Sequence record: NZ_CP040186.1
Strand: one strand, 5' to 3'
From: a plasmid
Length of the DNA stretch: 64,000 nt
How positions within the stretch are numbered: position 1 is the stretch's first letter; the number at the start of each line of letters is the position of its first letter. A program made the translations under genes and the position numbers. The notes under the pieces were generated by a model. That model was not told the origin of the DNA. It saw nothing but the letters and a program-made list of their open reading frames with translations, and did not search any database. This document shows, piece after piece, positions 2,271 to 20,404 of the stretch.

Positions 2271-2590
2271 AAACATTCCCGGCAGAAAATCAATCTGGGG
2301 CTACCTGGAGAATGGGCCCCCTATATCAGAACTGGTTTAATCGACCTCCCTGGGATCACAGTCAGAAATTCTTTGCGTCTTCTTTACATCGCAGTGCAGC
2401 GTAAGCTCGACTTATTTACCGATCGAGGGGGGCTGAACAGACCCAACGTTATCTTCATCAAATCATATCATTTGGACGTTAACTATCAGATTTAGGGCTG
2501 GTATTCGTGATATACAAAAGCCTATAGTCAGAGAAAAAGCGGCCAGATGTGCCACTGTTCCCCCATTATTTACCGCAAGGAACATTGTTA

Positions 2591-3229
2591 ATGAGAAGAC
2601 TCCCCGTTTACCTGTTACTTGATACATCAGGTTCAATGCATGGTGAACCCATTGAGGCTGTTAAAAATGGCGTTCAGACACTGCTAACCACGTTAAAGCA
2701 GGACCCCTATGCTTTAGAAACGGCGTTTGTGTCGGTTATTACTTTCAATTCCTCAGCACACCAGGCCGTTCCTCTGACGGATCTGCTTAGTTTCAACCTG
2801 CCCTCTTTGACCGCGAGCGGAACCACAGCGCTGGGCGAAGCCTTATCTCTGATTGCGAATCGTATTGACTCAGAAGTCATGAAAACAACAGCAGATACAA
2901 AAGGTGACTGGCGACCGTTGGTGTTCCTGATGACTGATGGCGCTCCGACAGACGACTGGCGAAAAGGCCTTAACGATTTTAAAGCAGCAAGGAAAGGCAT
3001 CGTGGTAGCCTGCGCGGCGGGCCATGACGCGGACACGGGTGTGCTGAAAGAGATTACAGAAATCGTCCTTCAACTGGATACTGCTGACAGCTCTTCTATC
3101 AAAGCGTTCTTCAAATGGGTATCGGCGAGTGTTTCTGTAGGAAGTCAGAAAGTTGACGCGGGTAAGAAAGAGGTTATCGGTCTTGATGATTTACCTCCAC
3201 CACCGCCAGAAGTGAACGTGGTTTTATAA
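2591..3229 (+). CDS. terY: TerY, von Willebrand factor A (vWA) domain protein, paralog 1
   Basis: Likely ATG at 2591 (MRRLPVYLLLDTSGSM). DTSGSM is a MIDAS D-x-S-x-S motif. C-terminal PPPPPE tail is shared with the next two paralogs. Confidence 0.75.
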   Translation: MRRLPVYLLLDTSGSMHGEPIEAVKNGVQTLLTTLKQDPYALETAFVSVITFNSSAHQAVPLTDLLSFNLPSLTASGTTALGEALSLIANRIDSEVMKTTADTKGDWRPLVFLMTDGAPTDDWRKGLNDFKAARKGIVVACAAGHDADTGVLKEITEIVLQLDTADSSSIKAFFKWVSASVSVGSQKVDAGKKEVIGLDDLPPPPPEVNVVL

Positions 3230-3253
3230 GATACTAATTTTAGGGGAGAGCCC

Positions 3254-3895
3254 ATGACAGTCAGCTTACGAAAAGGGCAAGGCGTTAGCCTGCGTAAAAA
3301 TGAGTTTGATCTTTCTTCGGTCACTATCGGTCTTGGCTGGGATATTAATGAAGAAAAAAAAGGTCTTCTCGGCGGGCTTTTCGGCAAAAAAGAGGAAGAG
3401 TATGACCTTGATGTCATCGCCTTCCTTTGCAACAACGAGGGAAAGGTTACTGATCTCGGAAATGTTGAAAACGGTAAACCCACGCTGGTTAATGGCGATA
3501 TTGTCTTCTTTAACAGTCTTCGCCATAAATCTGGGCAAATCTGGTTGACCGGCGATAACCGGACAGGGGCCGGAGACGGAGACGATGAGCAAATAATTGC
3601 AAAACTAAATAGCCTCGACCCGAAGTATGAAAAAATTGTATTCATTGTTCAAATCTACAACGGCGAAAAATTACAGCAGCACTTCGGTAAAGTACAGAAT
3701 GCATTTATCCGGGCGGTGGATGGAAGAAATGTCGAAATGGCCCGGTTCGACCTTTCAGGAGGCGCATCCTTTACCGGTCAGCGATCGATGGTCTTTGCAG
3801 AACTCGTTCGGGAACCAACCGGCTGGAAACTGAATGCGATCGGTGAGCCGTCAACCTCAGATTCCTTCGTCAGCCATCTGAGGAATTTTATCTAA
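3254..3895 (+). CDS. terX: TerX, TerD-family (TerD domain) stress protein
   Basis: TerD-domain hallmarks: GLGWD, the calcium-binding motif GDNRTGAGDGDDE, 213 aa. SD-like GGGGAGAG upstream. Confidence 0.75.
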   Translation: MTVSLRKGQGVSLRKNEFDLSSVTIGLGWDINEEKKGLLGGLFGKKEEEYDLDVIAFLCNNEGKVTDLGNVENGKPTLVNGDIVFFNSLRHKSGQIWLTGDNRTGAGDGDDEQIIAKLNSLDPKYEKIVFIVQIYNGEKLQQHFGKVQNAFIRAVDGRNVEMARFDLSGGASFTGQRSMVFAELVREPTGWKLNAIGEPSTSDSFVSHLRNFI

Positions 3896-4534
3896 ATGCG
3901 CAGACTACCTGTTTATCTGCTCATCGACACTTCGGGTTCGATGCGTGGCGAATCAATACATTCAGTGAATGTCGGTGTTCAGGCGATGCTGAGTGCCCTG
4001 CGACAGGACCCCTATGCCCTGGAAAGTGTCCATATCTCTATCATCACCTTTGATAATGAAGCACGGGAATATGTCCCTCTGACGGCACTGGCTGATTTTC
4101 AGTTTGTGGATATTCAGGTGCCCAGTGCGGGTGGGACATTTACGGGAGCTGCACTGGAGTGCCTGATGAGTTGTGTGGACCGGGACATTCACCGGTCCGA
4201 TGGTGAGCAAAAAGGTGACTGGCGACCGCTGGTCTTCCTGATGACCGATGGTACGCCTTCTGATGCATGGGCTTATGGTGAAGCCGTTAAAGAGGTTCAT
4301 CACCGTTCATTTGGTTCCATCATCGCCTGTGCTGTTGGTCCTAAAGCTGGGCATGAGCATCTTAAGCAACTGACTGACAAAGTTGTGGCACTGGAGACAC
4401 TGGATTCGACAGCCTTTTCAGGCTTTTTCAAATGGGTCAGCGCAAGTGTGGCATCAGGAAGTTCGAGTGCGGGGGTCAATACCTCCTCAGACACGCTTCC
4501 CCCTCCTCCACCTGAAATACAGCTGGTCCTTTAA
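3896..4534 (+). CDS. terY: TerY vWA-domain protein, paralog 2
   Basis: MRRLPVYLLIDTSGSM MIDAS motif. Start overlaps the terX stop (TAAATG). Paralogous to 2591..3229. Confidence 0.75.
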   Translation: MRRLPVYLLIDTSGSMRGESIHSVNVGVQAMLSALRQDPYALESVHISIITFDNEAREYVPLTALADFQFVDIQVPSAGGTFTGAALECLMSCVDRDIHRSDGEQKGDWRPLVFLMTDGTPSDAWAYGEAVKEVHHRSFGSIIACAVGPKAGHEHLKQLTDKVVALETLDSTAFSGFFKWVSASVASGSSSAGVNTSSDTLPPPPPEIQLVL

Positions 4535-4628
4535 GTCCTTACCGGTATGGCAGGAGGACAACCTTGCCATACATCCTTTCAGTCCATCTAAGAAGTGGAC
4601 GTAATTTATGGCGTGATGGGAGTTTCTT

Positions 4629-5669
4629 ATGAGACGGCTTCCCGTATTCTTTGTTCTGGACTGTTCAGAGTCCATGATTGGTGAAAATCTGAAAAGGATG
4701 AATGATGGCTTACAGATGATCGTTAACGATCTGCGTAAGGACCCCCATGCACTCGAAATGGCCTGGATTTCGGTTATTGCATTTGCTGGTGTCGCCAGAA
4801 CTATTGTTCCTCTCCATGATATTGTGTCTTTTTATCCCCCTCGCCTTCCTGTTGGAGGAGGAACAAGCCTTGGGGCTGCGTTACGGGAACTTACGATACA
4901 AATAGATTCTCAGGTGCGTAAAACCAACCTTGAAGAAAAAGGGGACTGGAAACCTGTGGTTTACCTGCTCACCGATGGACGTCCTACCGATGATATTTCG
5001 GGTGAAGTAAAACGCTGGAATGATTATTACGCGAAAAAAGTGAACCTGATCGCGGTAGGTATGGGGAATTCGGTAGACCTTGGTGTGCTTCGCCAACTGA
5101 CTGAAAACGTTTTACTGTTTACGGAAAGCCAGGACGGAGATTTCACGCGTTTCATACAGTGGATCACTGCTTCCGTCACGGCCCACAGCAGAAGCGTAGG
5201 AGAAGATACTCAACCGCCACTGAAACAGACCGACTATATCGTCAAACTCGCCAAAGATGAAATCACCAGAGCTTACGATGGTAACTGCGTGGTTCTGACC
5301 GGACGTTGCAGCAAAACACGTCGACCCTATCTTATGAAGTATGAACGGCCACCGGCTAAGGTATCAGGGCTTGCCTTTGACCTAAACCTGAACACCTTCA
5401 ATATTACAGGCTGCTATCCGATCGATGAAGACTACTTCTCATGGTCGGATATGGCCGCATCTGGCGTTCAGGTTAATACCAGTGAACTCCATGGCGTTCC
5501 TGGATGCCCGCATTGTGGAAACAGTAGCGCTTTCGCGATGTGCAGCTGTGGGAAGCTTCTTTGTATCGATGGTCCGGATGATGTTATCCGCCCATGGTGC
5601 GAGAAAGGACAGTCCTTTCAGGACGACGGTGGTCATTCCGATTTCAACGTTAGCAGAGGACGCGGCTGA
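4629..5669 (+). CDS. TerY-like vWA-domain protein with C-terminal zinc ribbon, paralog 3 (TerY-P triad component)
   Basis: MRRLPVFFVLDCSESM MIDAS motif. C-terminal CPHCGN...CSCGKLLC...CEKG cysteine cluster reads as a zinc ribbon. Stop overlaps the start of the next gene (TGATG). Confidence 0.7.
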   Translation: MRRLPVFFVLDCSESMIGENLKRMNDGLQMIVNDLRKDPHALEMAWISVIAFAGVARTIVPLHDIVSFYPPRLPVGGGTSLGAALRELTIQIDSQVRKTNLEEKGDWKPVVYLLTDGRPTDDISGEVKRWNDYYAKKVNLIAVGMGNSVDLGVLRQLTENVLLFTESQDGDFTRFIQWITASVTAHSRSVGEDTQPPLKQTDYIVKLAKDEITRAYDGNCVVLTGRCSKTRRPYLMKYERPPAKVSGLAFDLNLNTFNITGCYPIDEDYFSWSDMAASGVQVNTSELHGVPGCPHCGNSSAFAMCSCGKLLCIDGPDDVIRPWCEKGQSFQDDGGHSDFNVSRGRG

Positions 5670-7435
5670 TGAGCGAATTGAGTACGCTGGAGCATAAAAT
5701 TGTCTCTCTTATTCTGGAAGAGTCAGCGGGAAAATCAGAACCTGAGGTCGCACTACAACTAAGCAACGACCCGGCCATTTGCAAGCTTATAAATGATTTA
5801 AGAGGCTGTGTGATAAACTTGGGGACCGGGGTAGCGTTATCTGACTCCAATGCTCATAAAGAGGTTGACGCCGCATACGTCAGCGAGCAGGTAAGCAGCT
5901 TAGTTCCATTCAGTGATGAACAATCCCCATCTCCCCTTCAGAACGATGTAAACCAAGACCACGAACATGATGCACAAATGGATGTTGTACAAATCAACCC
6001 AGAACCATCCAGGCATGAGATGAATGAACCTCCCGGACATGAGAATGCTGACACGACTAATCAGCAATCTTCAGTGCAGGCAGAATCAGCGATTGCTGAA
6101 GCACAACCGGCTTTGTCAACTGCATCAGAAGCAGAGATGTCGGGCATTACAGATAGTGACGATACATCGGAAACAGCTGAATCTCACAGTCAGTCTGAGG
6201 CGATCTTACTCAGACCAGGGGAAATACCCCACAAAAAGACTGAGGAGCGTTCTCCTGCCATCCAGAAAGCACCTGACGTGTCCATTATTCTTGCAAATGC
6301 CAGGGTCGGTGAATCTTTTGATGCACTGGTAGATATCATTACTGACAGTGGCGTTACGGCAGAAGTGACCGATATTCACTTTCCCCAGGATATCGGTCTG
6401 CTCTTTTGTAAAAACGAGAAGCGCCTAAAAGGAACACCAGCATTCAGCGGAAACTTTGATATGACAGTTAAATGGTCATGTCCCTCATATCCGGATAATG
6501 AAAAAAAGTTACTTTTTGTTGTCAATCCCGACCCAAAAAGCCTCTGGAAAGTGATTGATCCCCCTACCGACACTCCTTTTTTCAAAAAGAGTATCGATCA
6601 TCGGAATATCACCTCTCCAACTGTAAATATCGTTGCTGCAAGTCGACGTGGACGTTCCCATGAACATGCAGGTACCTTCCGCGACGATGATTTTTATATC
6701 AATGTCAGTGATGAATCCGGATGGAACGTGTTGCTGGTGGCAGACGGAGCAGGTAGTGCCCGATTTTCTCGTGAAGGCTCACGCATTGTGGCTGACACCG
6801 TTGGTAATTACCTTTTCAGCCAACTAAAAGCAGAAAAGGGTCATGAAATCAAAGACAGAGTGCTGCGCTGGAACAGCGAAGATCAGCGGGCTGTATGGGA
6901 TTTCATGAATCACCATTTCAGGCAAGCTGCGTTACTGGCTGTGCATAACATCAGCAGTGCAGCAATCATGGCCCAGGACAAAGTAAAGTCATTCTCAACA
7001 ACTTTGCTGGCGACCGTCACTTTTCGTGAGGGCTCTGAACTGTTTGCTGCGTCCTTCTGGCTTGGCGATGGCGCTATTGCTGCATATGGACCGGTCGGAA
7101 AGGTCAGGGTCCTGGGAGCCCCCGATAGTGGAGAATATGCCGGACAGACACGATTCCTTGACGCTGAGGCCGTCAGTGACACTGGATTCAGTAAACGCAT
7201 CAGTATAGGTAAGTGGAATGATGTCTCTCACCTTGTTCTGATGACTGATGGTGTATCCGACCCGTGGTTTGAGACAGACAACGGACTACAGAATCCGACG
7301 AAATGGGACACGTTAATGACAGAGCTGAATCCCCTTCTCTCTGTTCCTGATCTGGCCTCATCGCAGCTGGTGGAGTGGTTAAACTTTTTCTCCCCGGGTA
7401 ATCATGATGATCGGACAATCGTTGTTCTCTGGTGA
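5669..7435 (+). CDS. PP2C-family Ser/Thr protein phosphatase (TerY-P triad phosphatase) with acidic low-complexity N-terminal linker
   Basis: PP2C motifs VLLVADGAGSARF and LVLMTDGVSD. Residues 90-230 are acidic and S/T/E/D-rich low complexity. Translationally coupled to the upstream vWA gene. Confidence 0.7.
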   Translation: MSELSTLEHKIVSLILEESAGKSEPEVALQLSNDPAICKLINDLRGCVINLGTGVALSDSNAHKEVDAAYVSEQVSSLVPFSDEQSPSPLQNDVNQDHEHDAQMDVVQINPEPSRHEMNEPPGHENADTTNQQSSVQAESAIAEAQPALSTASEAEMSGITDSDDTSETAESHSQSEAILLRPGEIPHKKTEERSPAIQKAPDVSIILANARVGESFDALVDIITDSGVTAEVTDIHFPQDIGLLFCKNEKRLKGTPAFSGNFDMTVKWSCPSYPDNEKKLLFVVNPDPKSLWKVIDPPTDTPFFKKSIDHRNITSPTVNIVAASRRGRSHEHAGTFRDDDFYINVSDESGWNVLLVADGAGSARFSREGSRIVADTVGNYLFSQLKAEKGHEIKDRVLRWNSEDQRAVWDFMNHHFRQAALLAVHNISSAAIMAQDKVKSFSTTLLATVTFREGSELFAASFWLGDGAIAAYGPVGKVRVLGAPDSGEYAGQTRFLDAEAVSDTGFSKRISIGKWNDVSHLVLMTDGVSDPWFETDNGLQNPTKWDTLMTELNPLLSVPDLASSQLVEWLNFFSPGNHDDRTIVVLW

Positions 7436-7462
7436 GCTTAATGGGACCACAGGTGGGTATTC

Positions 7463-8962
7463 ATGGCAAATATTGTTACATGTAAAACTAAGGATGGAAA
7501 AACCATTCAGTATGTCGATGAAGTCATCGGCTCAGGCTCAATGAAGGATGTATATTTTTCTCCAGATAAATCGTACGTTGTGGCCTTCTATCATAAGCCT
7601 CAGAACGATCAGGCCCGCGAACGTATTAATATGATAACGGGCAGATACCGGCAAAATATTTTCGAACAATCAGGAGGAGATTACTGGAAAGGTCTTTTTT
7701 GCTGGCCTACAGATGTTGTCGAGCACGGCGACAAGGTGGGGATTGTGGTGCCCTCCTATCAGCAGCACTTTTTTTTCCGGTATGGCTCCAAAAATAACGA
7801 TTTTCTCGGGATCAAAGGACGGGAAAAAGAAGGAAAATGGTTCGCCAGCGCCAACAATCAGAATAAGTTCCTCGATCCTCGTGAACGGGGCAATACTCTC
7901 AACTACCTCAAAGTTTGCTTACTGTTAACCCGGGCAGTCAGACGGATGCATGCTGCAGGACTGTGCCACAGTGACCTGAGCTATAAGAATGTCCTGATAG
8001 ACCCTGAACTGGGCCATGCGTGCATCATCGATGTTGACGGGTTGGTTGTACCTGGCAAATACCCCCCTGACGTGGTTGGCACACCAGATTTTATTGCCCC
8101 GGAAGTGGTGACAACAAGCCATCTGCCAAAAGATGACGCTAAGCGTGTACTGCCAAGCATAGCCACCGACCGGCATGCGCTTTCAGTACTGATTTATATG
8201 TATCTGCTTTTTCGTCATCCCTTACGGGGTGGAAAGATCCACGACATGGACGATGAGGTGCGGGATGAATCCCTTGCTATGGGGGAAAAGGCTCTGTTCA
8301 TCGAACATCCGACAGACCACAGCAACGGGGTTAAACTCAGCCAGGTCTCCTCATTTTCTCTTCCCTGGGCCGATCCTCAGAAAATCCCTTACACCGTCCT
8401 GGGACCTTATTTAACACCGCTATTCGACCGGGCATTTATTGACGGGCTGCATGATCCGTCAAAACGGCCGACAGCGGATGAATGGGAAACGGCCCTGGTA
8501 AAAACGGTCGATTTAGTTCAGCCTTGCCAGAATGATGCCTGTGAGCAGAAGTGGTACGTTTTTTCCGGCAAAACGAAACCGGCGTGTCCTTACTGTGGAA
8601 CGCCATACAAAGGTAAGCTTCCGATCCTGAATCTGTATTCATCCAGAAAAGCAGGGTCTTTCAGGCCTGATGACCACCGGCTAATGGTCTGGAGCGGGCA
8701 GTCTGTATATGCCTGGCATGTTAACCGGCTGGTTGCACCCAATGAAAGAACAACAGCTGACCAGAAAAAACGAGTGGGGTATTTCGTTTTCCATAATGAC
8801 CAGTGGTGGCTTGTAAACGAGGGAATACATGGGTTGATGTCTCTACCCGACCGCAGAGTGATAGCCATTGGTGATAAGCTCCGTCTGGATGACAACGCTC
8901 AGTTTATTCTTTCTGCTGAGGAAGGCGGGCGATTGGTGGTGGTTCAGCTTTTGGATAATTAG
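7463..8962 (+). CDS. Hanks-type Ser/Thr protein kinase with C-terminal zinc ribbon (TerY-P triad kinase)
   Basis: Catalytic loop HSDLSYKNVLID (HRD-like). DVDG in place of DFG. GTPDFIAPEV (APE motif). CQNDACEQ...CPYCG zinc ribbon. Confidence 0.7.
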   Translation: MANIVTCKTKDGKTIQYVDEVIGSGSMKDVYFSPDKSYVVAFYHKPQNDQARERINMITGRYRQNIFEQSGGDYWKGLFCWPTDVVEHGDKVGIVVPSYQQHFFFRYGSKNNDFLGIKGREKEGKWFASANNQNKFLDPRERGNTLNYLKVCLLLTRAVRRMHAAGLCHSDLSYKNVLIDPELGHACIIDVDGLVVPGKYPPDVVGTPDFIAPEVVTTSHLPKDDAKRVLPSIATDRHALSVLIYMYLLFRHPLRGGKIHDMDDEVRDESLAMGEKALFIEHPTDHSNGVKLSQVSSFSLPWADPQKIPYTVLGPYLTPLFDRAFIDGLHDPSKRPTADEWETALVKTVDLVQPCQNDACEQKWYVFSGKTKPACPYCGTPYKGKLPILNLYSSRKAGSFRPDDHRLMVWSGQSVYAWHVNRLVAPNERTTADQKKRVGYFVFHNDQWWLVNEGIHGLMSLPDRRVIAIGDKLRLDDNAQFILSAEEGGRLVVVQLLDN

Positions 8963-9011
8963 ATACGGTTTCTCTGTTTAATCCTGACCATTGATATCAT
9001 AACGTCAATAT

Positions 9012-9036
9012 GAGCCCACCTTTAGGTGGGCCATAA
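9012..9036 (+). terminator. possible stem-loop terminator after kinase gene (GAGCCCACCT-TT-AGGTGGGCC)
   Basis: Perfect 9-bp inverted repeat just after the kinase stop. No clear T-tract, so weak. Confidence 0.25.
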
Positions 9037-9130
9037 ATATCGCAGCCGAAACGGAATAATTGCGGCTATAAGGTTTTACTTCAGTGACGAATAAACCTGA
9101 TGACTCATTCTAAAATGTAAAGAGCATATT

Positions 9131-11335
9131 GTGACTTTAGAACTTAAACACCCTCGTGAGATCTATCAGATTATCTCTGAAGAGCTGGACAAAATCATAC
9201 ATTCATTACAGAGCCAAAGCGGTGATAAATATTTCGATGACACCCAGGCCGACGCGCTCAAACAATTAGATCTACATCAGGCAGAGTTACGTGCTCAGCT
9301 AGTCCGGTTGGAAAAGAATGCCGAGTGGAATACGTTTACTGTCGCTTTTTACGGGGAAACCGGGGCAGGGAAATCCAGCATCATTGAAACGCTGCGTATT
9401 CTGCTTCGCGAGCCCGGAAAACTGAATGATCAACTTAATTTCCGAGCATTTCAGGAAAAGTACAGTTTAAGCGAGAGTAGTTTTCAGAAACTTGCACAAG
9501 ATACGGAACAAGCAGAGAAGAAACTTACCGGGATCATTAAGCAAATCGCAGGCGTTAGACAGGTTTTTGATCAACAGCATCTGGCCGACCTGAAGCATAT
9601 TGAGTCTCTGCAAAGTCAGGTCAATGAACATAAACGTACGGCTTCGCTGTGGCAGAAGCTACTCTTCTGGTTTCGAAAGTTGCCACAGGAAATCGAACTC
9701 GACACGGTCAGACAACATTTGCAGGATACCGTTGCCTCACATGAATGCGCTATCCGCAAGTTACTCAACGTTCAGGAGGAGGCTCGGCAGAAAAAAAATG
9801 AGTTAATTCAGAAGAATCTGGAGTCTAAAAGCCACCTGCCGGAATTGGGTGCAATGGCCGACGGTGCCATCATCGGTGATGGTAGCTCTGACTTCACTCG
9901 ACAAACTCAGCGTTATAACGTGGAGCTTGATGGTTATAAGTTCGCTTTGCTGGACGTCCCCGGTATTGAAGGTAAAGAAGGGTTAGTGCTTAAAGAGATC
10001 GAAGATGCAGTTCAAACGGCTCATGCGGTGTTCTATGTCACCAACCAGCCTGCTCCGCCGCAAACAGGTGATGATCAACGTCAGGGCACACTGGAAAAGA
10101 TCAAAACACATCTCAAAGATCAAACCGAAGTGTGGACGATTTTCAACAAGAAAATTATCAATCCGATGGCAATCATGAAACAGCCACTGATTAAAGATGA
10201 TGAAGAAAATAGCCTAGCTGAGCTCGATAAAAGAATGCATGAAAAGTTAGGTACAAACTATCGTTGCGTGTTTCCCCTCAGCGTTCTGCCAGCTTTTTTA
10301 GCCTCTACGGATCATTTTGCTCCCGATTCACAAAATGCTAAACGACGCAAAAAATTTCTTGATAGCTTTAATGCCGATGAACTTTTGGAAATATCTCACA
10401 TGCGGTCCTTTATCCGGATGCTCAGTGAAAAGTTACTGGGTAACAGTGCCGACCGAATTAAAGCCGCTAACTTCAGCCAGGCCAAAGGCAGGGTTGATGA
10501 AAGCAATGCCAAAGTACGGCATATTCACGAGATCTTCTCTACTGTGGCCGAACAACTGGAACTGGACAGTGACAATTCCTGCAAACAGCTGCGTCAAAGT
10601 TTCAGTTTGTTCCGGCACCGGCTGGAAGCCCTCAGTGCCAAATTGGTTGATGAACTGGTCATCTCCGTACGCGCTTCTGTCTACTCACTAATTAATCAAG
10701 ATATCAGCAGCGATGAATTCAAAAGTAACCTGAGAAGTTGCATTACACAGCAGCAGGATGCATTCAGCGAAAAGTTAAGAAAAGGCATTCAGGAGGACGT
10801 AGAAATATTCCAGCAAGATTCCAAAAATATACTCACACGGTTTGAACAATACAGTCAGGAATTGTTCAACACCTATGGCAAGCTCGGTGCTACAAAGTTC
10901 AATTTAGACTTTGATATCAATATCAAAATGGATAACGGTGTTAATGGATGGGGGCTGCTGGCTGGGCTGGCGGGGATTGCGCTTGCTCCTTTCACCGCAG
11001 GAGCAAGCCTCTGGGTGGTCGGGGCGGCTGTACTGACATCTCTGATTTCCGTCGGCAAGGCCCTAGTTGGATTTTTTAGTACTTCATACAAACAATCCCA
11101 ACAACGTAAAGCCACAAATGAAAATCTGGTGGTGATACGCTCACAAATACAGACAGCCATTGATTCTGCTCTGAAGGACATCACGCCGCAAATGCAGAAA
11201 ACAATTGAACAGATTGAACAGGCTCTAAAATCCCCGGGCGAGCAGGTCGCGGCTAAAGCCTGGCTCCTTAAAAGCGCTACCCAAAAACTTGACCTTCTTT
11301 CACGCCAGATCAGTAATGCAGGTAACTTGCCATGA
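9131..11335 (+). CDS. bacterial dynamin-like / LeoA-like large GTPase 1 with C-terminal hydrophobic membrane hairpin
   Basis: P-loop FYGETGAGKSS (G1), DVPG (G3), long coiled-coil stalk. Residues about 600-650 are hydrophobic (GWGLLAGLAGIALAPFTAGASLWVVGAAVLTSLI). GTG start with weak SD. Stop overlaps the next start (ATGA). Confidence 0.65.
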   Translation: MTLELKHPREIYQIISEELDKIIHSLQSQSGDKYFDDTQADALKQLDLHQAELRAQLVRLEKNAEWNTFTVAFYGETGAGKSSIIETLRILLREPGKLNDQLNFRAFQEKYSLSESSFQKLAQDTEQAEKKLTGIIKQIAGVRQVFDQQHLADLKHIESLQSQVNEHKRTASLWQKLLFWFRKLPQEIELDTVRQHLQDTVASHECAIRKLLNVQEEARQKKNELIQKNLESKSHLPELGAMADGAIIGDGSSDFTRQTQRYNVELDGYKFALLDVPGIEGKEGLVLKEIEDAVQTAHAVFYVTNQPAPPQTGDDQRQGTLEKIKTHLKDQTEVWTIFNKKIINPMAIMKQPLIKDDEENSLAELDKRMHEKLGTNYRCVFPLSVLPAFLASTDHFAPDSQNAKRRKKFLDSFNADELLEISHMRSFIRMLSEKLLGNSADRIKAANFSQAKGRVDESNAKVRHIHEIFSTVAEQLELDSDNSCKQLRQSFSLFRHRLEALSAKLVDELVISVRASVYSLINQDISSDEFKSNLRSCITQQQDAFSEKLRKGIQEDVEIFQQDSKNILTRFEQYSQELFNTYGKLGATKFNLDFDINIKMDNGVNGWGLLAGLAGIALAPFTAGASLWVVGAAVLTSLISVGKALVGFFSTSYKQSQQRKATNENLVVIRSQIQTAIDSALKDITPQMQKTIEQIEQALKSPGEQVAAKAWLLKSATQKLDLLSRQISNAGNLP

Positions 11336-13026
11336 ACGAAACAATCAACGCATTTAATGCCCAACAAACTCATGCTTTGGAACTTCTGCAAAAGCTTGAA
11401 GCCTTCCTACAGCAAGGGGCTCTGGCGGGAGTTCCCATCGATCCAGTGCTCAGCGGGAAAATACACAATGCAATCGCCAGTTTAGCTGATGAAAAACTTA
11501 AGGTAGCACTCATCGGCGGTTTTTCAGAAGGTAAAACCTCAATCGCTGCGGCCTGGATGGAGGAGCTCGATAAGTCGAGCATGAAGATCAGCCACCAGGA
11601 ATCATCCAATGAAGTGAAGGTGTACGACGTTGGTCAGGATTTCGTCCTGATCGACACTCCGGGGCTTTTCGGTTTCAAAGAACAGGTAAACGACGATAAC
11701 CATTCCATAGAAAAGTACAAAGACATCACAAAAAAGTACGTTAGTGAAGCCCATCTGGTGCTTTACGTAATGAACCCGACCAACCCGATCAAGGAAAGTC
11801 ACGAGGAAGACCTGACATGGCTTTTCCGCACACTCGATTTATTGCCACGCAGCATATTCGTGCTCAGCCGTTTTGACGAAGTGGCCGATGTCGAGGATGA
11901 AGATGATTATGCGCACAACCTGAATATCAAACGAACAAATGTGGCGAAGCGCCTCGGCGAAATGATCAGCCTGACCGCGCAGGAACAGGAAAACTTGTCT
12001 ATTGTTGCGGTAGCAGCTAACCCCTTTGATCTGGGGACTGAGCACTGGCTGGCGAATGGCGAGCAGTTTAAAGCGTTATCCCACATCACCAGCCTGCAAG
12101 CCGCAACTACTGATAAGATACAACACAGTGGTGGCAGCAAGGCTCTGGCTAATGACATGCGCAGCAGTGTTATCCGCGATATTTTGCACAACCAGTTGCC
12201 CGTCGCGATTGATAACGACGAAAAAATATCTCATGAAGTCCGCAAGCTCGACAGCCTGTATAGTCGTATGAAAACGGAGCTGGCACAGGCAGATCGGGAA
12301 ATCGAAAACACCGTGATTAATCTGCGAGAATTTGTCATCCGCTACTTCGCCGATCTAATCGTGCAAGCCCAGGGATGCAGCATGGAAACCTTCAGCGAGT
12401 TCTTTGAACGTGAAGTGGGCGATGAAGGTATCATCGTCAGCATGCGACTGGAAAACGAATTCAGCCGACAGATTCAGCCTATCGAACTCAACATGGAGAA
12501 AATGCAACTGAGTTTTGATATTGAAATTAATCAGTTCAATACCACCATCAAAGCGCTTGGCAAACAAGGTATCAATCATGTCCTTAAGGGGGATCTGATC
12601 AACAACAAGACCGTGCTTGGCGCCCGCGATGGTATCGTCGGCATGGGTAAGTTGTTCGGTAAAGATTTCAGCAGTGTATTAAAATTCAAACCCTGGGGAG
12701 CGACCAAACTGGCGAAAGGGGCCAATGGTGCGTTGATCGCAGTCGGTATAGCGTTGGAGGTGTGGGACAGTTACCAGCAATATCAGCGAGAACAAGCATT
12801 CCAGAAAGCCATCGCAGGTATGATTGAGAACTTTGAACAGCATCGTAAGAATCTGAAAATACTGATTGAAAAAACTCAGTTCAAGGAGCAGTTCTTTGGC
12901 GATTTGAAAAGTAATGCCAGAGAACTTGAAGCCAGTCTGAATGCGAGCAGGGAGAGTCAGCAACGGTTCCAGGCATGGCGTGCAATGGCAGAAACTATCG
13001 AAGGTGAATTCAGGAAGCTGGACTAA
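11332..13026 (+). CDS. bacterial dynamin-like GTPase 2 (partner of 9131..11335)
   Basis: G1 GGFSEGKTS, G3 DTPGLFG, helical C-terminal half. ATGA overlap with the upstream gene indicates translational coupling. Confidence 0.65.
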   Translation: MNETINAFNAQQTHALELLQKLEAFLQQGALAGVPIDPVLSGKIHNAIASLADEKLKVALIGGFSEGKTSIAAAWMEELDKSSMKISHQESSNEVKVYDVGQDFVLIDTPGLFGFKEQVNDDNHSIEKYKDITKKYVSEAHLVLYVMNPTNPIKESHEEDLTWLFRTLDLLPRSIFVLSRFDEVADVEDEDDYAHNLNIKRTNVAKRLGEMISLTAQEQENLSIVAVAANPFDLGTEHWLANGEQFKALSHITSLQAATTDKIQHSGGSKALANDMRSSVIRDILHNQLPVAIDNDEKISHEVRKLDSLYSRMKTELAQADREIENTVINLREFVIRYFADLIVQAQGCSMETFSEFFEREVGDEGIIVSMRLENEFSRQIQPIELNMEKMQLSFDIEINQFNTTIKALGKQGINHVLKGDLINNKTVLGARDGIVGMGKLFGKDFSSVLKFKPWGATKLAKGANGALIAVGIALEVWDSYQQYQREQAFQKAIAGMIENFEQHRKNLKILIEKTQFKEQFFGDLKSNARELEASLNASRESQQRFQAWRAMAETIEGEFRKLD

Positions 13027-13119
13027 ATAGCATTTTCTCTTGAACCGCCCCGGTAATCCTGGAGACTAAACTCTTTGAGAGAGGTAAACAGGATGGCTAA
13101 AAATACACGTTTTCCTCGA

Positions 13120-13290
13120 TATATGGCAGCAGACCGTCAGCATGGTTCTGGAATGCGAGGACGGGTATGACTCACAATGGGCAGCCCTGAGCTCCATCGC
13201 TCCGAAAATCGACTGCACGCCGGAGACCCTTCGTATCTGGTTGCTTCTGTATGAACGTGATGCTGGTGGTGGTGATGGTGGACTCTCCAC
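13120..13290 (+). mobile_element. remnant of an IS3-family orfA (....WLLLYERDAGGGDGGLSTI)
   Basis: Translation resembles the C-terminal part of IS3-family OrfA proteins (ERD-GGGDGGL). No intact ORF or ends. Confidence 0.3.
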
Positions 13291-13811
13291 TATTTAGGCG
13301 ACAAATACACTGGCCTGTTTGTAATCCGAGCGTCCTGTTTCTTCTTTCATGGGATAGGTTGTGACGCTGAATACCAGACAGGTCAGTTTTTACATGGTTC
13401 AACGTAATAAAGGTCTTAGACCCTGTACACGATTCTGTGTAAATGCCTTTTCTCAGTAGTGACCGTCCAGGCGATCCCCGTAGCTGGCACCGACGACCTT
13501 CGCCATGGTGGTCTGCAAATTCTCAATAAGTCTACTGTAGCCAAATCGCAGGCGGTTCAAGGAACAGCCCTTAGACAACAGACATTATAGAATTCTGTTG
13601 AGTTTTTTATTACTTCTACCTAAATAAATTTGCATATTACCGAACCTAGCCAGGCTATGGTTGACCTATTCCCAGTTGCTTGACACAGGCCGTTGTTAGC
13701 AAGATTCATGATGATTCAACTACGGACTTCTGCTCTTCGCTCATACCTGGCATCCGAGATATTTTCAGGTTTCGAAATACTCGAATTCAAGGCAACAAGT
13801 AAAAATGGCCG

Positions 13812-14882
13812 CTATCTCTCATGGCACAGTTCAAATTCGTTCAACTGCTCTAACGCTTTCGCCACACTCTGGAACATCAGATGTTTTTCCTCATGCTTCT
13901 GTGACAGCCGAGAAACGACGGTAAACACACTTCCGCTGCTCTCAGGCCAGCAGTCGTCATGAAGTGCTGGTATCAACATCTTTCTTGCTTGATGTTGCAA
14001 TGCAGGAGTCGTCAGACTACAGATGTACGTTCGTACTTCAAACTGTCTTCCAGGTGTTTTGTCTAGAAAAAGTACCACATCAGATTTACTCACCCAGTGC
14101 GACAACCCGAAGCGCAGTGCCGGGTAACCTTCCCAATGATTAAGTGCCGTTGTGACCTCATAACCACGTTCAGAAAAGTGCTCTGTCAGAAACCGTAGGC
14201 CTTCCTCCTGAAGTGATTTCACCACAGCATTTTTCAGTAACACCGCTTCCTGAATATTACGCAAATTTTCGAGAACGAAGATTTCTGTCTCTGCTGCAAT
14301 CGTATTTTTACCCATCAGTGTCTCCAGATGTAGAATGAATTCGCGCAGCAAAACCTGCCATTTATTGAGCGGGGAAGAAATGCATGCCATGCCGAGCCTG
14401 GGCGACAGAACAGAAATAAACATACTGTAGCTTATTCCTGTCCAACCGGCAGGAGCCAGTCCTTCCGGCGACAGAACCACTAGGAACGGTGTCTTATCTG
14501 GATGTTTTTGCTCCAGATACCCACTGTAATCATTGAAAGGATTGTTCAGCTGGTGCCAGATTTTATTCTCCAATACCATGGCCCATTCTTTCGACTCAAG
14601 TAGCAAATCGATTCGAGTTCCTTTCTGGGTCATAACCTCACGGGCTGGTGGAGAGAGAAGTGATGCATCAACATGGGCTGGCAGGCACTCCAGAAGGGCC
14701 CCAAGAACCAGTGTATTCAGTCCATGGGGCGCATCCGGATCAATAAAGAAAGCGAGTAAATCGCTGACAGGGTTTTCATAGTGTCCACGGGCACCAACCG
14801 AAAATATATTGGTCTCACTTTTTTCAGCAACAGGCAGTGACTTGAGGCGAGTCAGTAATTCTTCCAGAGCAGGCAGGTCCAT
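13812..14882 (-). CDS. PD-(D/E)xK nuclease superfamily protein (stand-alone)
   Basis: Probable start MDLPALEELL. Catalytic-core-like segment RIDLLLESKEWAMVLENKIW (D...E-x-K). About 355 aa. Flanked by IS remnants on both sides. Confidence 0.5.
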   Translation of the reverse strand: MDLPALEELLTRLKSLPVAEKSETNIFSVGARGHYENPVSDLLAFFIDPDAPHGLNTLVLGALLECLPAHVDASLLSPPAREVMTQKGTRIDLLLESKEWAMVLENKIWHQLNNPFNDYSGYLEQKHPDKTPFLVVLSPEGLAPAGWTGISYSMFISVLSPRLGMACISSPLNKWQVLLREFILHLETLMGKNTIAAETEIFVLENLRNIQEAVLLKNAVVKSLQEEGLRFLTEHFSERGYEVTTALNHWEGYPALRFGLSHWVSKSDVVLFLDKTPGRQFEVRTYICSLTTPALQHQARKMLIPALHDDCWPESSGSVFTVVSRLSQKHEEKHLMFQSVAKALEQLNEFELCHER

Positions 14883-15209
14883 CGGTTTCTCCGCAGCGGC
14901 TTTCCCTGGACAGAAACATACCAACAAAAAGAGCCTTGGCATAGGGGGGCCTGTCTGCCCGCTGGCATTGGGTGCACGATAATTGCGGTGGATTTCAAAG
15001 TTAACAGTCCGCTTCGTGCTGTGAGTTCAACCGATGGACGCAACACACTTATTGAACCGTTCTGCGGGTGATTCATAGTCTAGCGTTTTTCTCGGCCTTT
15101 CGTTGAGCTGTCTGGCAACACTGTTAAGTCTTTGCTGGCTGTGAACCGATAAGTCAGTTCCTTTTGGAAAATATTGTCTGAGCAATCTGTTTGAATCGCC
15201 ACAGATAGT

Positions 15210-15974
15210 CTAGACACTTCTGATAATATTGATTTTCATATTCCGTCGGTGGCATCTGATTACTCGAACCATGCCGACGCTTACTGTTATAAAACATTCG
15301 ATGTAATCAAAAATATCGCTGCGGGCTTCTTCCCGCGTCCCGTAGATCTTTTTCTTTATCCGTTCACGCTTCAGGAGCTGGAAAAAACTTTCTGCAACTG
15401 CGTTATCGTGACTGTTACCGCGGCGGCTCATGCTGCCCTCCAGTCCGTGTGATTTCAGGAACGATTGCCACTCATGGCTTGTGTACTGACTACCTTGATC
15501 AGAATGAACCTGCACCTGTTTTTGGGGATTACGTCGCCACACGGCCATCAGAAGCGCATTCAGGACAATATCTTTTGTCATCCGGGGTTGCATTGACCAG
15601 CCGATAACTTTGCGTGAGAACAGGTCAACAACTACGGCCAGATACAGCTAGCCTTCGTGGGTTCGGATGTAAGTTATGTCCGTTACCCAACGTTCATCCG
15701 GTGCTTCCGGGTTGAACTGCCGCTGGAGTTTGTTGGGTGTCACGATACTGGCTTCACCTATACGCGCTCGTGGGCTTCGATACCCGACCTGAGCCTTTAT
15801 CCCGGCACGCTTCATCAGCCGCCAGACCCGGTTAATCCCGCATTGTTGCCCGCTATCTCGCAGGTCGAGATGGATCTTGCGATAGCCATAAACACAACCG
15901 GACTCCAGCCAGAACTGTTTGATTTGTCCTGTCTGTAGATTCAATTGGTCAACGCAACAGTCATGTGAAAACAT
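15210..15974 (-). pseudogene. IS3-family transposase orfB, frameshifted (two ORF fragments)
   Basis: Fragments 15648..15974 and 15210..15593 together match the intact orfB at 61061..61873 (DDE region HSDQGSQYTS...) but are out of frame with each other. Confidence 0.6.
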
Positions 15975-17155
15975 GTAATTGCGGAGGATTGTTGGATGAG
16001 ACGGACATTTACAGCAAAAGAAAAAGCATTTGTTTTTGAACTATGGAAGAACGGAACAGGCTTCAGTGAGATAGCTAATATCCTGGGTTCGAAACCAGGA
16101 ACCATCTTCACTATGTTAAGAGACACTGGCGGCATAAAACCCACTGAACGCAGGCGGGCTGTAGCTCACCTGACCTTGTCTGAACGCGAGGAAATACGTG
16201 CTGGTCTGTCAGCCCAAATGAGCATTCGTGCGATCGCTACTGCGCTGAATTGTAGCCCTTCGACGATTTCACGGGAAGTTCAGCGTAATCGTGGCAGGCG
16301 GCTATTACAAAGCCGTTGATGCTAATAACTGGGCCAACAGGATGGCCAGAAGACCAAAACCGTGCTTACTGGATCAGAATATGCCGTTGCGGGAGCTTGT
16401 TCTGGAAAAGCTGGAGATGAAGTGGTCTCCAGAGCAAATATCAGGGTGGTTAAGGCGAACGAAGCCGCGTCAAAAAACTCTGCGAATATCACCTGAGACG
16501 ATTTATAAGACGCTGTACTTTCGTAGTCGTGAAGCGCTACACCACCTGAATGTACAGCATCTGCGCCGTTCGCATAGCCTCCGGCATGGCAGACGCCATA
16601 CTCGCAAAGGTGAAAGAGGCACGATTAACATTGTGAACGGAACGCCAATCCACGAACATTCCCGGCATATCTATAACAGGCGCTCTCTTGGTCACTGGGA
16701 TGGCGATTTAGTATCGGGTACAAAAAACTCTCATATAGCCACACTTGTAGACCGAAAATCACGTTATACGATCATCCTGAGACTTAATGGCAAAGATGCC
16801 ACCTCGGTGAATCAGGCTCTTACAGATAAATTCTTGAGCTTGCCGCCTGAACTCCGGCAATCACTGACATGGGACAGAGGAATGGAGTTGGCCAGGCATC
16901 TGGAATTTACTGGCAGCACAGGGGTTAAAGTTTACTTCTGCGATCCTCAGAGTCCCTGGCAGCGGGGAACAAACGAAAACACTAATGGGCTAATCCGACA
17001 GTACTTTCCCAAAAAGACATGCCTTGCCCAATATACTCAACATGAGCTGGATCAGGTTGCAGCTCAGCTAAACAACAGACCGAGAAAGACACTGAAGTTC
17101 AAAACACCGAAAGAGATAATCGAAAGGGTTGTTGCGTTGACAGATTGAATCTACA
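15934..17155 (+). mobile_element. IS30
   Basis: Terminal IR TGTAGATTCAATTGGTCAACGCAACAG at 15934 and its inverse ending at 17155. Length about 1222 bp. Encoded protein is near-identical to IS30 transposase. Confidence 0.85.
15996..17148 (+). pseudogene. IS30 transposase, split by a 1-nt insertion frameshift near 16300
   Basis: ORFs 15996..16319 and 16291..17148 together equal the 383-aa IS30 transposase. The sequence cgg-c-tattac carries an extra base relative to the expected ...GRRYYKAVD. May be a sequencing error. Confidence 0.7.
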
Positions 17156-17926
17156 GCGGCTTTTTTTAATATGTCCCGTTCGTCAGTAACCCGCTTCAGC
17201 TCCTTCTGGAGTCGGCGGCTCTCAGCCTGAGCATCTGACTGTTCTTTGTTGGTGGAAGAGTCCGGTCCGTACCTCTTTATTCAGGCGTAAAGACTGTCAG
17301 TAGTGATATCGAGACGTGTTGCGACGCTGGAAACAGAATGGCCTCGCTCAACAACCTGCTTTACCTATTCAATTTTAAACTCTTCGGGATAACGTTTACC
17401 GCTCATGGGCACCTCTCTTTTAATTAATCTTAAATGACTCCGAGGTGTCTGTTAAACCTGTGGCGATTCACACTACAAAATATTCGACGTTCACAATACA
17501 GATTTTATTTTCCCTGCACTCAATCACCGGTCAATTTTCCCGAATTGACCGGGAATGGTTATTCATATCGCCTTACCAGGTGATGATATTTTCATGTATG
17601 GCATATAGTTATGTCCGTTTAGAGTTTTGAGTTTAGACGGTTGATGCAGCACACTAGGTAAATCGTCCTGTAGGCGGCTACAACTGAACTGACCCCATAG
17701 CCCAGCTGTTTTATGGTCGAATACCTCGGCACACTGATGATCACTGAGGCTTTATTATTGTATATTTACTGGCATTCAACAGCATGAATGAATACGTGGA
17801 TTATCTCCTTGATGTCTTGGAAAATATCCGCATCCGCTCGTGATTCATTAGGAATGTACAGGTTGGGATTTTCAAACGTATCTGCCTGGTAAACGCCTCT
17901 TTTTTCTGATGAATAAATTTATATAG

Positions 17927-20332: not shown

Positions 20333-20403
20333 CGCTTCCTGCGCTTATGTTGCACGGAAGGAGTGAGCACAGAAGGTCTTGAACTTTTCTGAGCATGAAT
20401 CTA
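20326..20403 (-). CDS. tap: tap (repA leader peptide, RepA6)
   Basis: Reverse-strand translation [23 protein letters not shown] ends where the repA1 GTG begins, like R100 tap ([25 protein letters not shown]). Confidence 0.6.
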
Positions 20404-20404
20404 T

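What the first reader, a model, noticed from the sequence alone, without database searches (positions are those of the whole stretch)
9131..13026. Pair of translationally coupled bacterial dynamin-like GTPases directly downstream of the TerY-P kinase
Two large GTPases (734 and 564 aa) with G1/G3 motifs and long helical stalks share an ATGA stop/start overlap. The first ends in a 45-residue hydrophobic hairpin (GWGLLAGLAGIALAPFTAGASLWVVGAAVLTSLI), typical of the membrane paddle of BDLP/LeoA-type dynamins. Paired dynamin-like genes have been linked to membrane repair and delayed phage lysis. Their placement at the 3' end of a ter/TerY-P locus suggests a membrane-remodelling output arm of this stress/defence island. 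I have not seen that described for ter clusters.
Basis: partly seen in the sequence, partly recalled or inferred. Interest (0 to 1): 0.7.

Follow-up and report, generated by a model that had tools for sequence, protein, structure and literature searches.

The report
Mobile dynamin-like gene pair beside ter
The two genes are a real pair of bacterial dynamin-like GTPases, but they belong to the already described LeoBC/LeoA "Dynamins" anti-phage family and form a mobile cassette that landed in a variable spot next to the tellurite-resistance island, not a conserved part of it.

Summary
ORFs 9131-11335 (734 aa) and 11332-13026 (564 aa) overlap by ATGA. Both have P-loop and DxxG motifs and long helical stalks, and the first has a hydrophobic hairpin at the stalk tip. 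They sit 168 bp downstream of the TerY-P kinase.

ORF2 is a LeoA/HP0731 dynamin-like GTPase (NCBIfam 679 bits; PDB 4AUR 2e-62). ORF1 is a fused LeoC+LeoB protein (PADLOC LeoBC 514 bits; the AlphaFold model best matches IniA, SynDLP, BDLP and LeoA). Together they form the known two-gene "Dynamins" defence system (Millman 2022; Michie 2014).

The ter "output arm" idea is not supported:
- None of 68 Leo loci from other species has ter or TerY-P genes within 10 kb.
- None of 80 diverse TerY-P loci has Leo genes.
- Only 4 of 2,238 ter plasmids carry the pair.
- Cassettes 89-96% identical lie in unrelated islands in Kosakonia, Yersinia and a metagenome contig.
- About 30 plasmids with 93-99% identical TerY-P modules carry other cargo after the kinase.
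- Homology switches sharply at window 9068-9070.

A second Raoultella plasmid has the cassette after its kinase, with a different junction. The adjacency therefore recurs locally in a variable hotspot. Ordinary; low interest.

The parts
9068..9130 (+). 5' flank of the Leo cassette. These are the only 63 bp of upstream DNA shared with the same cassette in other genomes. AAGAG ribosome-binding site at 9120-9124.
   Evidence: blastn against Kosakonia, Yersinia, JGI and R. ornithinolytica loci starts at window 9066-9068. The alignment shows the switch from ter-plasmid homology to Leo-cassette homology at about 9067-9072. The scan found no sigma-70-like promoter here on the + strand.
9131..11335 (+). 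leoBC-like gene: a fused LeoC+LeoB dynamin-like GTPase, 734 aa. Features: P-loop at residues 75-82 (nt 9353-9376); coiled-coil hairpin inserted in the G domain at residues about 95-245 (nt 9413-9865); G3 DVPG at 275-278 (nt 9953-9964); helical stalk; hydrophobic hairpin at residues about 603-652 (nt 10937-11086); C-terminal GED-like helix at 651-730.
   Evidence: PADLOC LeoBC 1.7e-154 over the full length, LeoB 2.6e-53, LeoC 2.5e-24, LeoA 3.7e-21. AlphaFold2 pLDDT 80. Foldseek top hits are IniA, SynDLP, BDLP, LeoA, MxB and Cj-DLP. Motifs and hydropathy. Pfam gives only MMR_HSR1; Dynamin_N is below cutoff.
11332..13026 (+). leoA-like gene: a LeoA/HP0731-family dynamin-like GTPase, 564 aa. Features: P-loop at 62-69 (nt 11515-11538); G3 DTPG at 108; G4 SRFD at 179; weakly hydrophobic glycine-rich tip at about 460-478 (nt 12709-12765).
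   Evidence: NCBIfam NF041922 679 bits (cutoff 325). Pfam DLP_helical 392 bits and Dynamin_N 29.3 (cutoff 27). PDB 4AUR LeoA 2.1e-62 over residues 5-522. PADLOC LeoA 3.4e-173. ATGA overlap.
13027..13056 (+). 3' edge of the cassette. Homology to other contexts ends 2-30 bp after the leoA stop codon.
   Evidence: blastn end points are 13028 (Kosakonia), 13032 (Yersinia), 13041 (L158) and 13056 (L159).
2549..8962 (+). Context, not part of the system: the terY/terX-TerY-P module (VWA, TerD, VWA, TerY_C-VWA, PP2C phosphatase, Ser/Thr kinase).
   Evidence: Pfam. The order is conserved in 62-73 of 80 metagenomic loci and in 2,238 plasmids.
8963..9069 (+). Context: 3' tail of the ter island, with a GC-rich hairpin (9013-9032) that has no U tract. 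Homology to Leo-less ter plasmids ends at 9069.
   Evidence: Megablast end points at query position 4441/4442, which is window 9069/9070, in about 30 plasmids. blastn, fold, alignment.
13040..13290 (+). Context: remnant of the left end and the 5' part of orfA of an IS3-family (IS1203-like) element, abutting the cassette.
   Evidence: blastn at about 76% identity to thousands of plasmids, annotated as IS3-like element IS1203 family where annotated. The remnant is absent from the Kosakonia locus, where window 13419-13480 follows directly after leoA.
13812..14942 (-). Context: PD-(D/E)XK nuclease, candidate defence gene PDC-S26.
   Evidence: PADLOC PDC-S26 3e-133. Pfam PDDEXK_4.

Best explanation
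Window 9068-13030 is a self-contained 4-kb two-gene cassette of the LeoBC/LeoA ('Dynamins') family of paired bacterial dynamin-like proteins.

Shown:
- ORF1 is a fused LeoC+LeoB dynamin-like GTPase with a hydrophobic hairpin at the stalk tip.
- ORF2 is a LeoA-type partner without a strong membrane segment.
- The two genes are translationally coupled, and this gene order is conserved across phyla.
- The cassette occurs on its own in unrelated genomic islands.
- Here it was joined by recombination or insertion to the 3' end of a ter island, in a variable region that holds different cargo in sister plasmids.

Inferred from relatives:
- The hairpin anchors LeoBC in the inner membrane.
- LeoA binds it, and hetero-oligomerisation switches on GTP hydrolysis and lipid binding, as in C. 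jejuni DLP1/DLP2.
- The complex tethers, seals or remodels the cytoplasmic membrane during phage infection. It thereby gives phage defence that depends on both P-loops, as shown for the Bacillus vietnamensis pair.

Its position next to TerY-P reflects clustering of defence and stress genes in a plasmid hotspot, not a dedicated signalling link.
For: Identity:
- ORF2: NCBIfam LeoA/HP0731 679 bits, DLP_helical 392 bits, 4AUR 2e-62.
- Both ORFs: PADLOC LeoBC 514 bits and LeoA 576 bits, with cross-hits showing the two are paralogues.
- ORF1: the AlphaFold model (pLDDT 80) best matches bacterial DLPs.

Pair conservation: leoA follows leoBC directly in about 64 of 68 loci from Pseudomonas to Helicobacter.

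Independence from ter:
- 0 of 68 Leo loci have VWA, TerD, TerY_C, PP2C or kinase genes within 10 kb.
- 0 of 80 TerY-P loci have Leo genes, and 35 of those have at least 4 kb downstream of the kinase.
- 2,238 plasmids carry TerY-P; in tblastn of all 72,556 plasmids a LeoA homologue turned up in only 8, of which 4 are this lineage.
- Cassettes 89-96% identical in DNA lie in non-ter contexts in Kosakonia, Yersinia, a JGI contig and others.
- Homology breaks precisely at 9068-9070 and 13028-13056.
- Ter modules 93-99% identical carry other genes after the kinase.
- One sister plasmid has an IS3 element inside leoBC.

Function of relatives:
- Millman 2022 preprint: a two-gene Leo-like operon protects against jumbo phages, and P-loop mutants of either gene abolish protection.
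- Liu 2018: Cj-DLP1 and Cj-DLP2 are inactive alone; the tetramer activates the GTPase and tethers membranes.
- Michie 2014: describes LeoA plus the split LeoBC.
Against: - No experiment exists for this pair. Anti-phage activity has been shown for only one distant member, and only against two jumbo phages.
- ETEC LeoABC was linked to vesicle and toxin release, not to defence.
- A second Raoultella plasmid (CP012556.1) also has the cassette downstream of its TerY-P kinase, with a different junction. The two ter-linked cassettes and one non-ter cassette form a well-supported clade. The adjacency is therefore not a single accident, and selection for it cannot be excluded.
- The window keeps only 63 bp of the native upstream DNA, against 356 bp shared by Kosakonia and Yersinia, and no promoter was detected there. 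Expression may therefore depend on read-through from the TerY-P operon.
- The tblastn screens used this window's proteins at E<=1e-5 and could miss very divergent ter genes.
Confidence: 0.8

Rival explanations
1. The dynamin pair is a membrane-remodelling output arm of the ter/TerY-P stress-defence island. It would be co-transcribed with TerY-P and regulated by its kinase/phosphatase switch.
For: - Same strand, 168 bp after the kinase, with a hairpin that has no U tract.
- Only 63 bp of native upstream DNA is kept and no promoter was detected.
- A second Raoultella plasmid has the same neighbourhood with another junction.
- Both ter systems and DLPs are membrane-associated and have been linked to phage resistance.
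Against: - 0 of 68 and 0 of 80 in the two reciprocal synteny screens.
- Only 4 of 2,238 ter plasmids carry the pair.
- Cassettes 89-96% identical work in non-ter contexts.
- Ter modules 98.9% and 95.8% identical lack it and carry other cargo at the same site.
- leoBC is disrupted by an IS in one of the four sister plasmids.
- Full-text searches found no paper linking ter loci to dynamin-like proteins.
Confidence: 0.06
2. The pair works like ETEC LeoABC as described originally. It would promote outer-membrane vesicle release or secretion as a virulence or fitness function, not phage defence.
For: ORF2 is homologous to ETEC LeoA. Deleting leoA or leoB reduced vesicle-associated OmpA and Tat-GFP by about 50% (Michie 2014).
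Against: - Millman 2022 found the operon next to known defence systems in 60% of cases and showed phage protection.
- Here the neighbours are a PDC-S26 nuclease and the ter island.
- In other hosts the neighbours are AIPR, SACS/NOV_C, CTD4/MComp1 and integrase islands. These are typical of defence islands, not secretion loci.
- ORF1 lacks the N-terminal anchor described for LeoC.
Confidence: 0.1
3. The pair is a general membrane-repair device, like B. subtilis DynA. It would help the plasmid host survive membrane damage from pore-formers, colicins or tellurite, and would therefore be useful beside ter without any direct coupling.
For: DynA seals membrane damage and delays phage lysis (cited and in Liu 2018). 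The ter island is historically linked to colicin and phage resistance (Whelan 1997, cited).
Against: No co-occurrence with ter beyond two plasmid lineages. The family is accessory, sporadic and island-borne, not housekeeping.
Confidence: 0.04

Closest known systems
'Dynamins' anti-phage system (LeoA + LeoBC) of PADLOC/DefenseFinder; tested example from Bacillus vietnamensis (Millman et al. 2022)
   Same: Two adjacent same-strand dynamin-like GTPase genes, with the larger LeoBC-type gene first and the LeoA-type gene second. Full-length matches to both PADLOC models. P-loops intact in both. Island-borne and next to other defence candidates.
   Different: Gammaproteobacterial and plasmid-borne. 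Anti-phage activity is untested. The tested system acted only against jumbo phages of Bacillus.
ETEC H10407 LeoA/LeoB/LeoC (Michie et al. 2014; PDB 4AUR)
   Same: ORF2 aligns with LeoA over residues 5-522 (2e-62). ORF1 covers LeoC (residues 9-251) plus LeoB (197-727). Same gene order.
   Different: - Here LeoC and LeoB are one polypeptide.
- There is no N-terminal membrane anchor.
- G4 of the LeoA-like protein is SRFD, where ETEC LeoA has NKMD.
- The genomic context is different: no tia island.
Campylobacter jejuni DLP1/DLP2 heterotypic pair (Liu, Noel & Low 2018; PDB 5OWV)
   Same: An operon-encoded pair of one BDLP-like protein and one LeoA-like DLP. It is the mechanistic model: each protein is inactive alone, and the tetramer activates the GTPase and tethers membranes. 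It gave the best TM-score among the structure hits (0.33/0.39).
   Different: No detectable sequence similarity by phmmer. Cj-DLP1 has an N-terminal assembly domain, whereas ORF1 has a coiled-coil hairpin inserted inside the G domain.
TerY-P triad and its associated modules (Anantharaman, Iyer & Aravind 2012)
   Same: The upstream neighbours are a canonical TerY (VWA/TerY_C), PP2C and kinase triad.
   Different: As I recall that paper, which I could not read here, the modules it links to TerY-P are DNA-processing and type VII-like. The H. pylori paper describes them the same way. Dynamin pairs are not among them, and my screens found no such linkage.

Membership tests
LeoA/HP0731 dynamin-like GTPase family (ORF2) | Full-length match to the curated family model above its cutoff | tested here: met
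   NF041922 679 bits against a cutoff of 325, residues 8-543. PF18709 DLP_helical 392 bits.
LeoA/HP0731 dynamin-like GTPase family (ORF2) | Homology to the solved LeoA structure | tested here: met
   4AUR_A 2.1e-62 over residues 5-522.
LeoA/HP0731 dynamin-like GTPase family (ORF2) | GTPase motifs G1, G3 and G4 | tested here: inconclusive
   G1 GGFSEGKT and G3 DTPG are present. G4 is SRFD, not NKxD. SRFD or SKFD is the form in 58 of 65 homologues, so it is typical of the family but non-canonical.
'Dynamins' defence system (LeoBC + LeoA) | Both component models hit, with the genes adjacent on the same strand | tested here: met
   LeoBC 1.7e-154 and LeoA 3.4e-173. 4-bp overlap.
'Dynamins' defence system (LeoBC + LeoA) | Protection against phage that depends on both P-loops | not testable with these tools
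   Known only for the B. vietnamensis pair.
Bacterial dynamin-like protein fold (ORF1) | G domain plus helical neck and trunk, with a membrane-binding element at the trunk tip | tested here: met
   The AlphaFold2 model has strands and helices of a G domain and long helices at 439-521, 527-586 and 651-730. The low-confidence hydrophobic segment 595-649 lies between them. Foldseek: IniA 8.7e-7, SynDLP, BDLP 9.9e-6, LeoA 1e-5. TM-scores are low (0.2-0.33), as expected for flexible multi-domain proteins.
Bacterial dynamin-like protein fold (ORF1) | Pfam Dynamin_N above the gathering threshold | tested here: not met
   17.8 bits against a cutoff of 27. Only MMR_HSR1 passes. The G domain is interrupted by a coiled-coil insertion of about 150 residues between G1 and G2, which probably explains the weak score.
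   0 of 68 Leo loci. 0 of 80 TerY-P loci. 4 of 2,238 TerY-P plasmids. Adjacency was seen only in the window lineage and in CP012556.1.
   The promoter and terminator scans were uninformative.

The most novel reading that the evidence does not exclude
In this Raoultella/Klebsiella plasmid lineage the Leo cassette has lost its native upstream region; only 63 bp is retained. It may now be expressed by read-through from the TerY-P operon. A dynamin-type membrane effector would then be under the control of the ter stress/defence phosphorylation switch. The same cassette also sits after the kinase of a second, diverged ter plasmid, which could reflect selection for this coupling.
Probability: 0.06. 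Interest if true: 0.5.

Novelty: new member of a known kind. Interest (0 to 1): 0.15.

Why it matters
It matters little beyond annotation.
- ORF1, which RefSeq calls 'hypothetical protein', can be named a LeoBC-type dynamin-like GTPase.
- The pair can be called a 'Dynamins' defence cassette.
- The result guards against reading function into adjacency: the region downstream of the ter-island kinase is a variable cargo hotspot on Enterobacteriaceae plasmids.
- If the minority reading were true, with the cassette driven by TerY-P transcription, it would offer a handle on what the TerY-P switch responds to.

Tried and rejected
- Sequence search of ORF1 against PDB chains gave nothing at E<=1. Fold comparison was needed instead.
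- Pfam alone would have left ORF1 as a generic MMR_HSR1 GTPase.
- Anantharaman et al. 2012, the key ter paper, could not be read. Statements about its content rest on memory and on how other papers cite it.
- Literature searches for dynamin with TerY, TerY-P or tellurite found no paper linking them. One search for the C. jejuni DLP paper returned nothing; the paper was then fetched by DOI.
- Promoter and terminator scans around the kinase-leo junction, and upstream of the Kosakonia cassette, did not exceed shuffled expectation. The fold of the junction is not unusually stable, z = -1.5.
- No match to the cassette was found in 5,426 complete E. coli genomes.
- I considered a discrete transposon-like element and rejected it. 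The 5' homology end points differ between contexts (63, 78, 112 and 356 bp upstream), and I saw no terminal repeats.
- I considered a single accidental juxtaposition. This was weakened by the second ter-linked copy with a different junction.
Full report
**1. Observation**

The window has two same-strand ORFs at exactly the stated coordinates: 9131-11335 (GTG start, 734 aa) and 11332-13026 (ATG start, 564 aa). The junction reads ccATGAacg, so the start of ORF2 overlaps the stop of ORF1 by 4 bp.

The GTPase motifs are as follows:
- ORF1: G1 GETGAGKS at 75-82 and G3 DVPG at 275.
- ORF2: G1 GGFSEGKT at 62-69 and G3 DTPG at 108.

It is not at the end of the protein. An 80-residue helix follows it.

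Upstream on the same strand lie VWA (2549-3229), TerD (3254-3895), VWA (3896-4534), VWA+TerY_C (4629-5669), PP2C (5669-7435) and a Ser/Thr kinase (7463-8962). This is the terY/terX-TerY-P module. The gap from the kinase stop to the GTG of ORF1 is 168 bp.

**2. What the two proteins are**

ORF2 is a clear member of the LeoA/HP0731 dynamin-like GTPase family:
- NCBIfam NF041922: 679 bits against a cutoff of 325.
- Pfam DLP_helical: 392 bits, and Dynamin_N just above its cutoff.
- Crystal structure of ETEC LeoA (4AUR): 2e-62 over residues 5-522.

ORF1 is poorly served by the general libraries. Pfam gives only MMR_HSR1, with Dynamin_N at 17.8 bits against a cutoff of 27, and there is no PDB sequence hit. 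The PADLOC models are decisive:
- LeoBC matches end to end (1.7e-154).
- LeoC covers residues 9-251.
- LeoB covers residues 197-727.
- LeoA also hits residues 244-717 (3.7e-21), which shows that the two ORFs are paralogues.

I built an AlphaFold2 model of ORF1 from a 21-sequence alignment (pLDDT 80, pTM 0.60). It shows:
- a G domain;
- a long two-helix coiled-coil hairpin (helices 115-170 and 185-234) inserted between G1 and G2;
- a helical stalk;
- a low-confidence hydrophobic segment at 595-649, at the stalk tip;
- a long C-terminal helix.

The best Foldseek matches in the PDB are bacterial dynamin-like proteins: IniA 8.7e-7, SynDLP, BDLP, and LeoA 1e-5. MxB and the C. jejuni DLP pair follow, and the latter gives the best TM-score. 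The 'dynamin-like pair' reading is therefore supported.

**3. This kind of pair is already described**

Michie et al. 2014 showed that LeoA is a bacterial dynamin encoded in tandem with a second dynamin. In ETEC that second dynamin is split into LeoC and LeoB and carries a predicted membrane domain between the middle domain and the GED.

Millman et al. 2022 found that a two-gene operon homologous to Leo lies next to known defence systems in 60% of cases. The Bacillus vietnamensis pair protects against the jumbo phages AR9 and PBS1, and P-loop mutations in either gene abolish protection. The paper notes that the first gene is sometimes split.

Liu et al. 2018 showed that the C. jejuni DLP1/DLP2 pair is inactive as monomers. 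A 2:2 tetramer switches on GTP hydrolysis and lipid binding and tethers liposomes. This is the best available mechanistic model.

For the window pair I infer the following:
- The hairpin anchors LeoBC in the inner membrane.
- LeoA is recruited as the soluble partner.
- Activity requires the hetero-oligomer.
- The output is membrane tethering, sealing or remodelling during infection.

None of these steps was tested here.

**4. Is the pair tied to ter? Screen starting from Leo**

I aligned LeoBC homologues and used the alignment to fetch 68 loci from one-genome-per-species contigs. They include Pseudomonas, Halomonas, Cupriavidus, Vibrio, Campylobacter, Helicobacter and others.

A tblastn with all the ter-side proteins of the window found leoA directly after leoBC in about 64 of 68 loci. 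It found no VWA, TerD, TerY_C, PP2C or kinase homologue within 10 kb in any locus.

Closer relatives give the same answer:
- Kosakonia cowanii chromosome (90% protein identity): the pair sits beside SACS/NOV_C, Hypoth_Ymh and CTD4/MComp1/SMC-like genes.
- Yersinia enterocolitica (87%): in an integrase/AlpA/CbtA/RadC island next to ychF-pth.
- A JGI contig (93% protein, 96.4% DNA): beside IS110, DUF4145 and AIPR.
- Other contigs: beside SACS/NOV_C plus an integrase, or a PT-VENN remnant.
- A 58% relative: beside [15 protein letters not shown] genes.

**5. Screen starting from ter**

The TerY-P module of the window matches 2,238 PLSDB plasmids by megablast, 34 of them at 90% identity or more.

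The Leo cassette matches only four, all at least 99.6% identical over the TerY-P module. A tblastn of LeoA against all 72,556 plasmids finds just eight plasmids, four of which are this lineage.

In about 30 plasmids whose TerY-P module is 93-99% identical, homology stops at window 9069/9070 or at the kinase stop. What follows the kinase differs between plasmids:
- a 'GTPase-associated' protein plus DUF2971 (98.9% identical ter module);
- two hypothetical proteins (95.8%);
- DUF262 plus EcsC (93.1%).

I also fetched 80 diverse metagenomic TerY-P loci with kinase identity of 56-91%. The VWA/TerY_C-PP2C-kinase order is kept in 62-73 of them. None has a LeoBC or LeoA homologue, and 35 have at least 4 kb downstream of the kinase.

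**6. Junctions**

DNA homology to the Kosakonia (93.4%), Yersinia (89.5%) and JGI (96.4%) cassettes covers window 9066/9068 to 13028-13056. Homology to Leo-less ter plasmids ends at 9069. A five-way alignment shows the switch within about 5 bp.

The window therefore keeps only 63 bp of cassette upstream DNA, whereas Kosakonia and Yersinia share 356 bp. I could not detect a promoter in those 63 bp. The hairpin after the kinase has no U tract. Read-through from the TerY-P operon is possible but unproven.

An IS3-family (IS1203-like) remnant abuts the 3' edge at 13040-13290. In one sister plasmid an IS3 element interrupts leoBC.

**7. A complication**

R. ornithinolytica plasmid CP012556.1 also has a Leo pair after its TerY-P kinase. 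The details differ from the window:
- The ter module is only 88.5% identical to the window's, while the cassette is 92.4% identical.
- The gap after the kinase is 500 bp.
- About 100 bp more of the ter tail is kept, followed by what looks like a transposase C-terminal remnant and then 112 bp of cassette upstream DNA.
- Compared with a Leo-less backbone, it is a clean insertion of about 4.3 kb.

In a neighbour-joining tree of cassette DNA, the window groups with the non-ter JGI copy (200 of 200 bootstraps). CP012556.1 is sister to that pair (200 of 200).

Either the cassette was captured once next to ter and later left, or it was captured twice. The window's ter module is much closer to Leo-less plasmids than to CP012556.1, so transfer or repeated capture in a recombination-prone hotspot is the simpler account. 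Some selection for the neighbourhood cannot be excluded. I give the functional-coupling reading about 6%.

**8. Verdict**

The pair is a new, uncharacterised member of a known kind: the LeoBC/LeoA 'Dynamins' defence cassette. The proposed link to ter is not supported by comparative evidence in either direction.

Interest is low.

Noticed in passing
P0029 and P0020 (for example locus L002, upstream of 10001); Pseudoalteromonas plasmid NZ_CP058973: Most Pseudomonas and Stutzerimonas LeoBC homologues are 1000-1081 aa and carry an N-terminal DUF726/DUF900 alpha/beta-hydrolase domain (residues about 20-243), fused to the dynamin-like part. This could be a lipase-type effector. The window protein lacks it. 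The papers I read do not mention it.
   Followed up: partly
window 9413-9865 (ORF1 residues about 95-245): A confidently modelled two-helix coiled-coil hairpin of about 150 residues is inserted in the G domain between the P-loop and G2. ETEC splits the protein into LeoC and LeoB at this place. G-alpha proteins, which also appear among the fold hits, carry their helical domain at the same topological position.
   Followed up: partly
window 10145-10162 (ORF1 NKKIIN) and 11866-11877 (ORF2 SRFD); loci L002-L069: G4 motifs are non-canonical and conserved in the family. LeoA-type proteins have S(R/K)FD in 58 of 65 loci, where ETEC LeoA has NKMD. LeoBC-type proteins have NK(K/R/P)(I/V)xN, without the specificity Asp.
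   Followed up: partly
window 8963 onward; loci L074, L075, L076, L158: The region just downstream of the TerY-P kinase is a variable cargo hotspot on Enterobacteriaceae ter plasmids. In closely related ter islands it holds DUF262+EcsC, DUF2971 plus a 'GTPase-associated' protein, hypothetical proteins, or the Leo cassette.
   Followed up: partly
window 13812-14942 (-): A PD-(D/E)XK nuclease matches the PADLOC candidate defence family PDC-S26 (3e-133). It is the next gene after the Leo pair, on the opposite strand.
   Followed up: no
window 13040-13290: A degraded left end and orfA start of an IS3-family (IS1203-like) element directly abuts the leoA stop. It is absent from the Kosakonia locus.
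   Followed up: yes
L077 (NZ_AP025011.1) 7310-12004: In sister plasmid pNUITM-VR1_2 an IS3-family element interrupts leoBC, and the PP2C gene is annotated only as a fragment. Both modules are decaying there.
   Followed up: partly
L070 9645-10000, L071 9646-10000, L166 297-782: The Kosakonia, Yersinia and Logan copies of the cassette share upstream DNA that includes a CdiA-like pre-toxin (PT-VENN) remnant. This hints that the cassette once sat beside a contact-dependent inhibition locus.
   Followed up: no
L070 14675-22205: Downstream of the Kosakonia Leo pair lie Hypoth_Ymh, a metallo-beta-lactamase-fold protein, and CTD4, MComp1 and SMC-like genes. Upstream is a 1077-aa SACS/NOV_C protein. 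These look like other conflict-system genes.
   Followed up: no
window 15210-27000: An IS-rich mosaic: IS3 fragments, an IS30-like element, IncFII RepA (19460-20332, -), a PLD-family nuclease (21022-21588, -), IS110 fragments and an IS21-like transposase (23135-25386).
   Followed up: no
window 44001-46000 and 48001-54000: Sharp composition shifts: GC is 35% at 44-46 kb and 57-63% at 48-54 kb, against about 48% elsewhere. This suggests further foreign insertions.
   Followed up: no
window 7463-8962: Several sources name the TerY-P kinase 'helix-hairpin-helix domain-containing protein'. It has invariant Cys pairs (C355, C360, C375, C378) in its C-terminal half, which suggests a zinc-binding or DNA-binding module after the kinase domain.
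   Followed up: no
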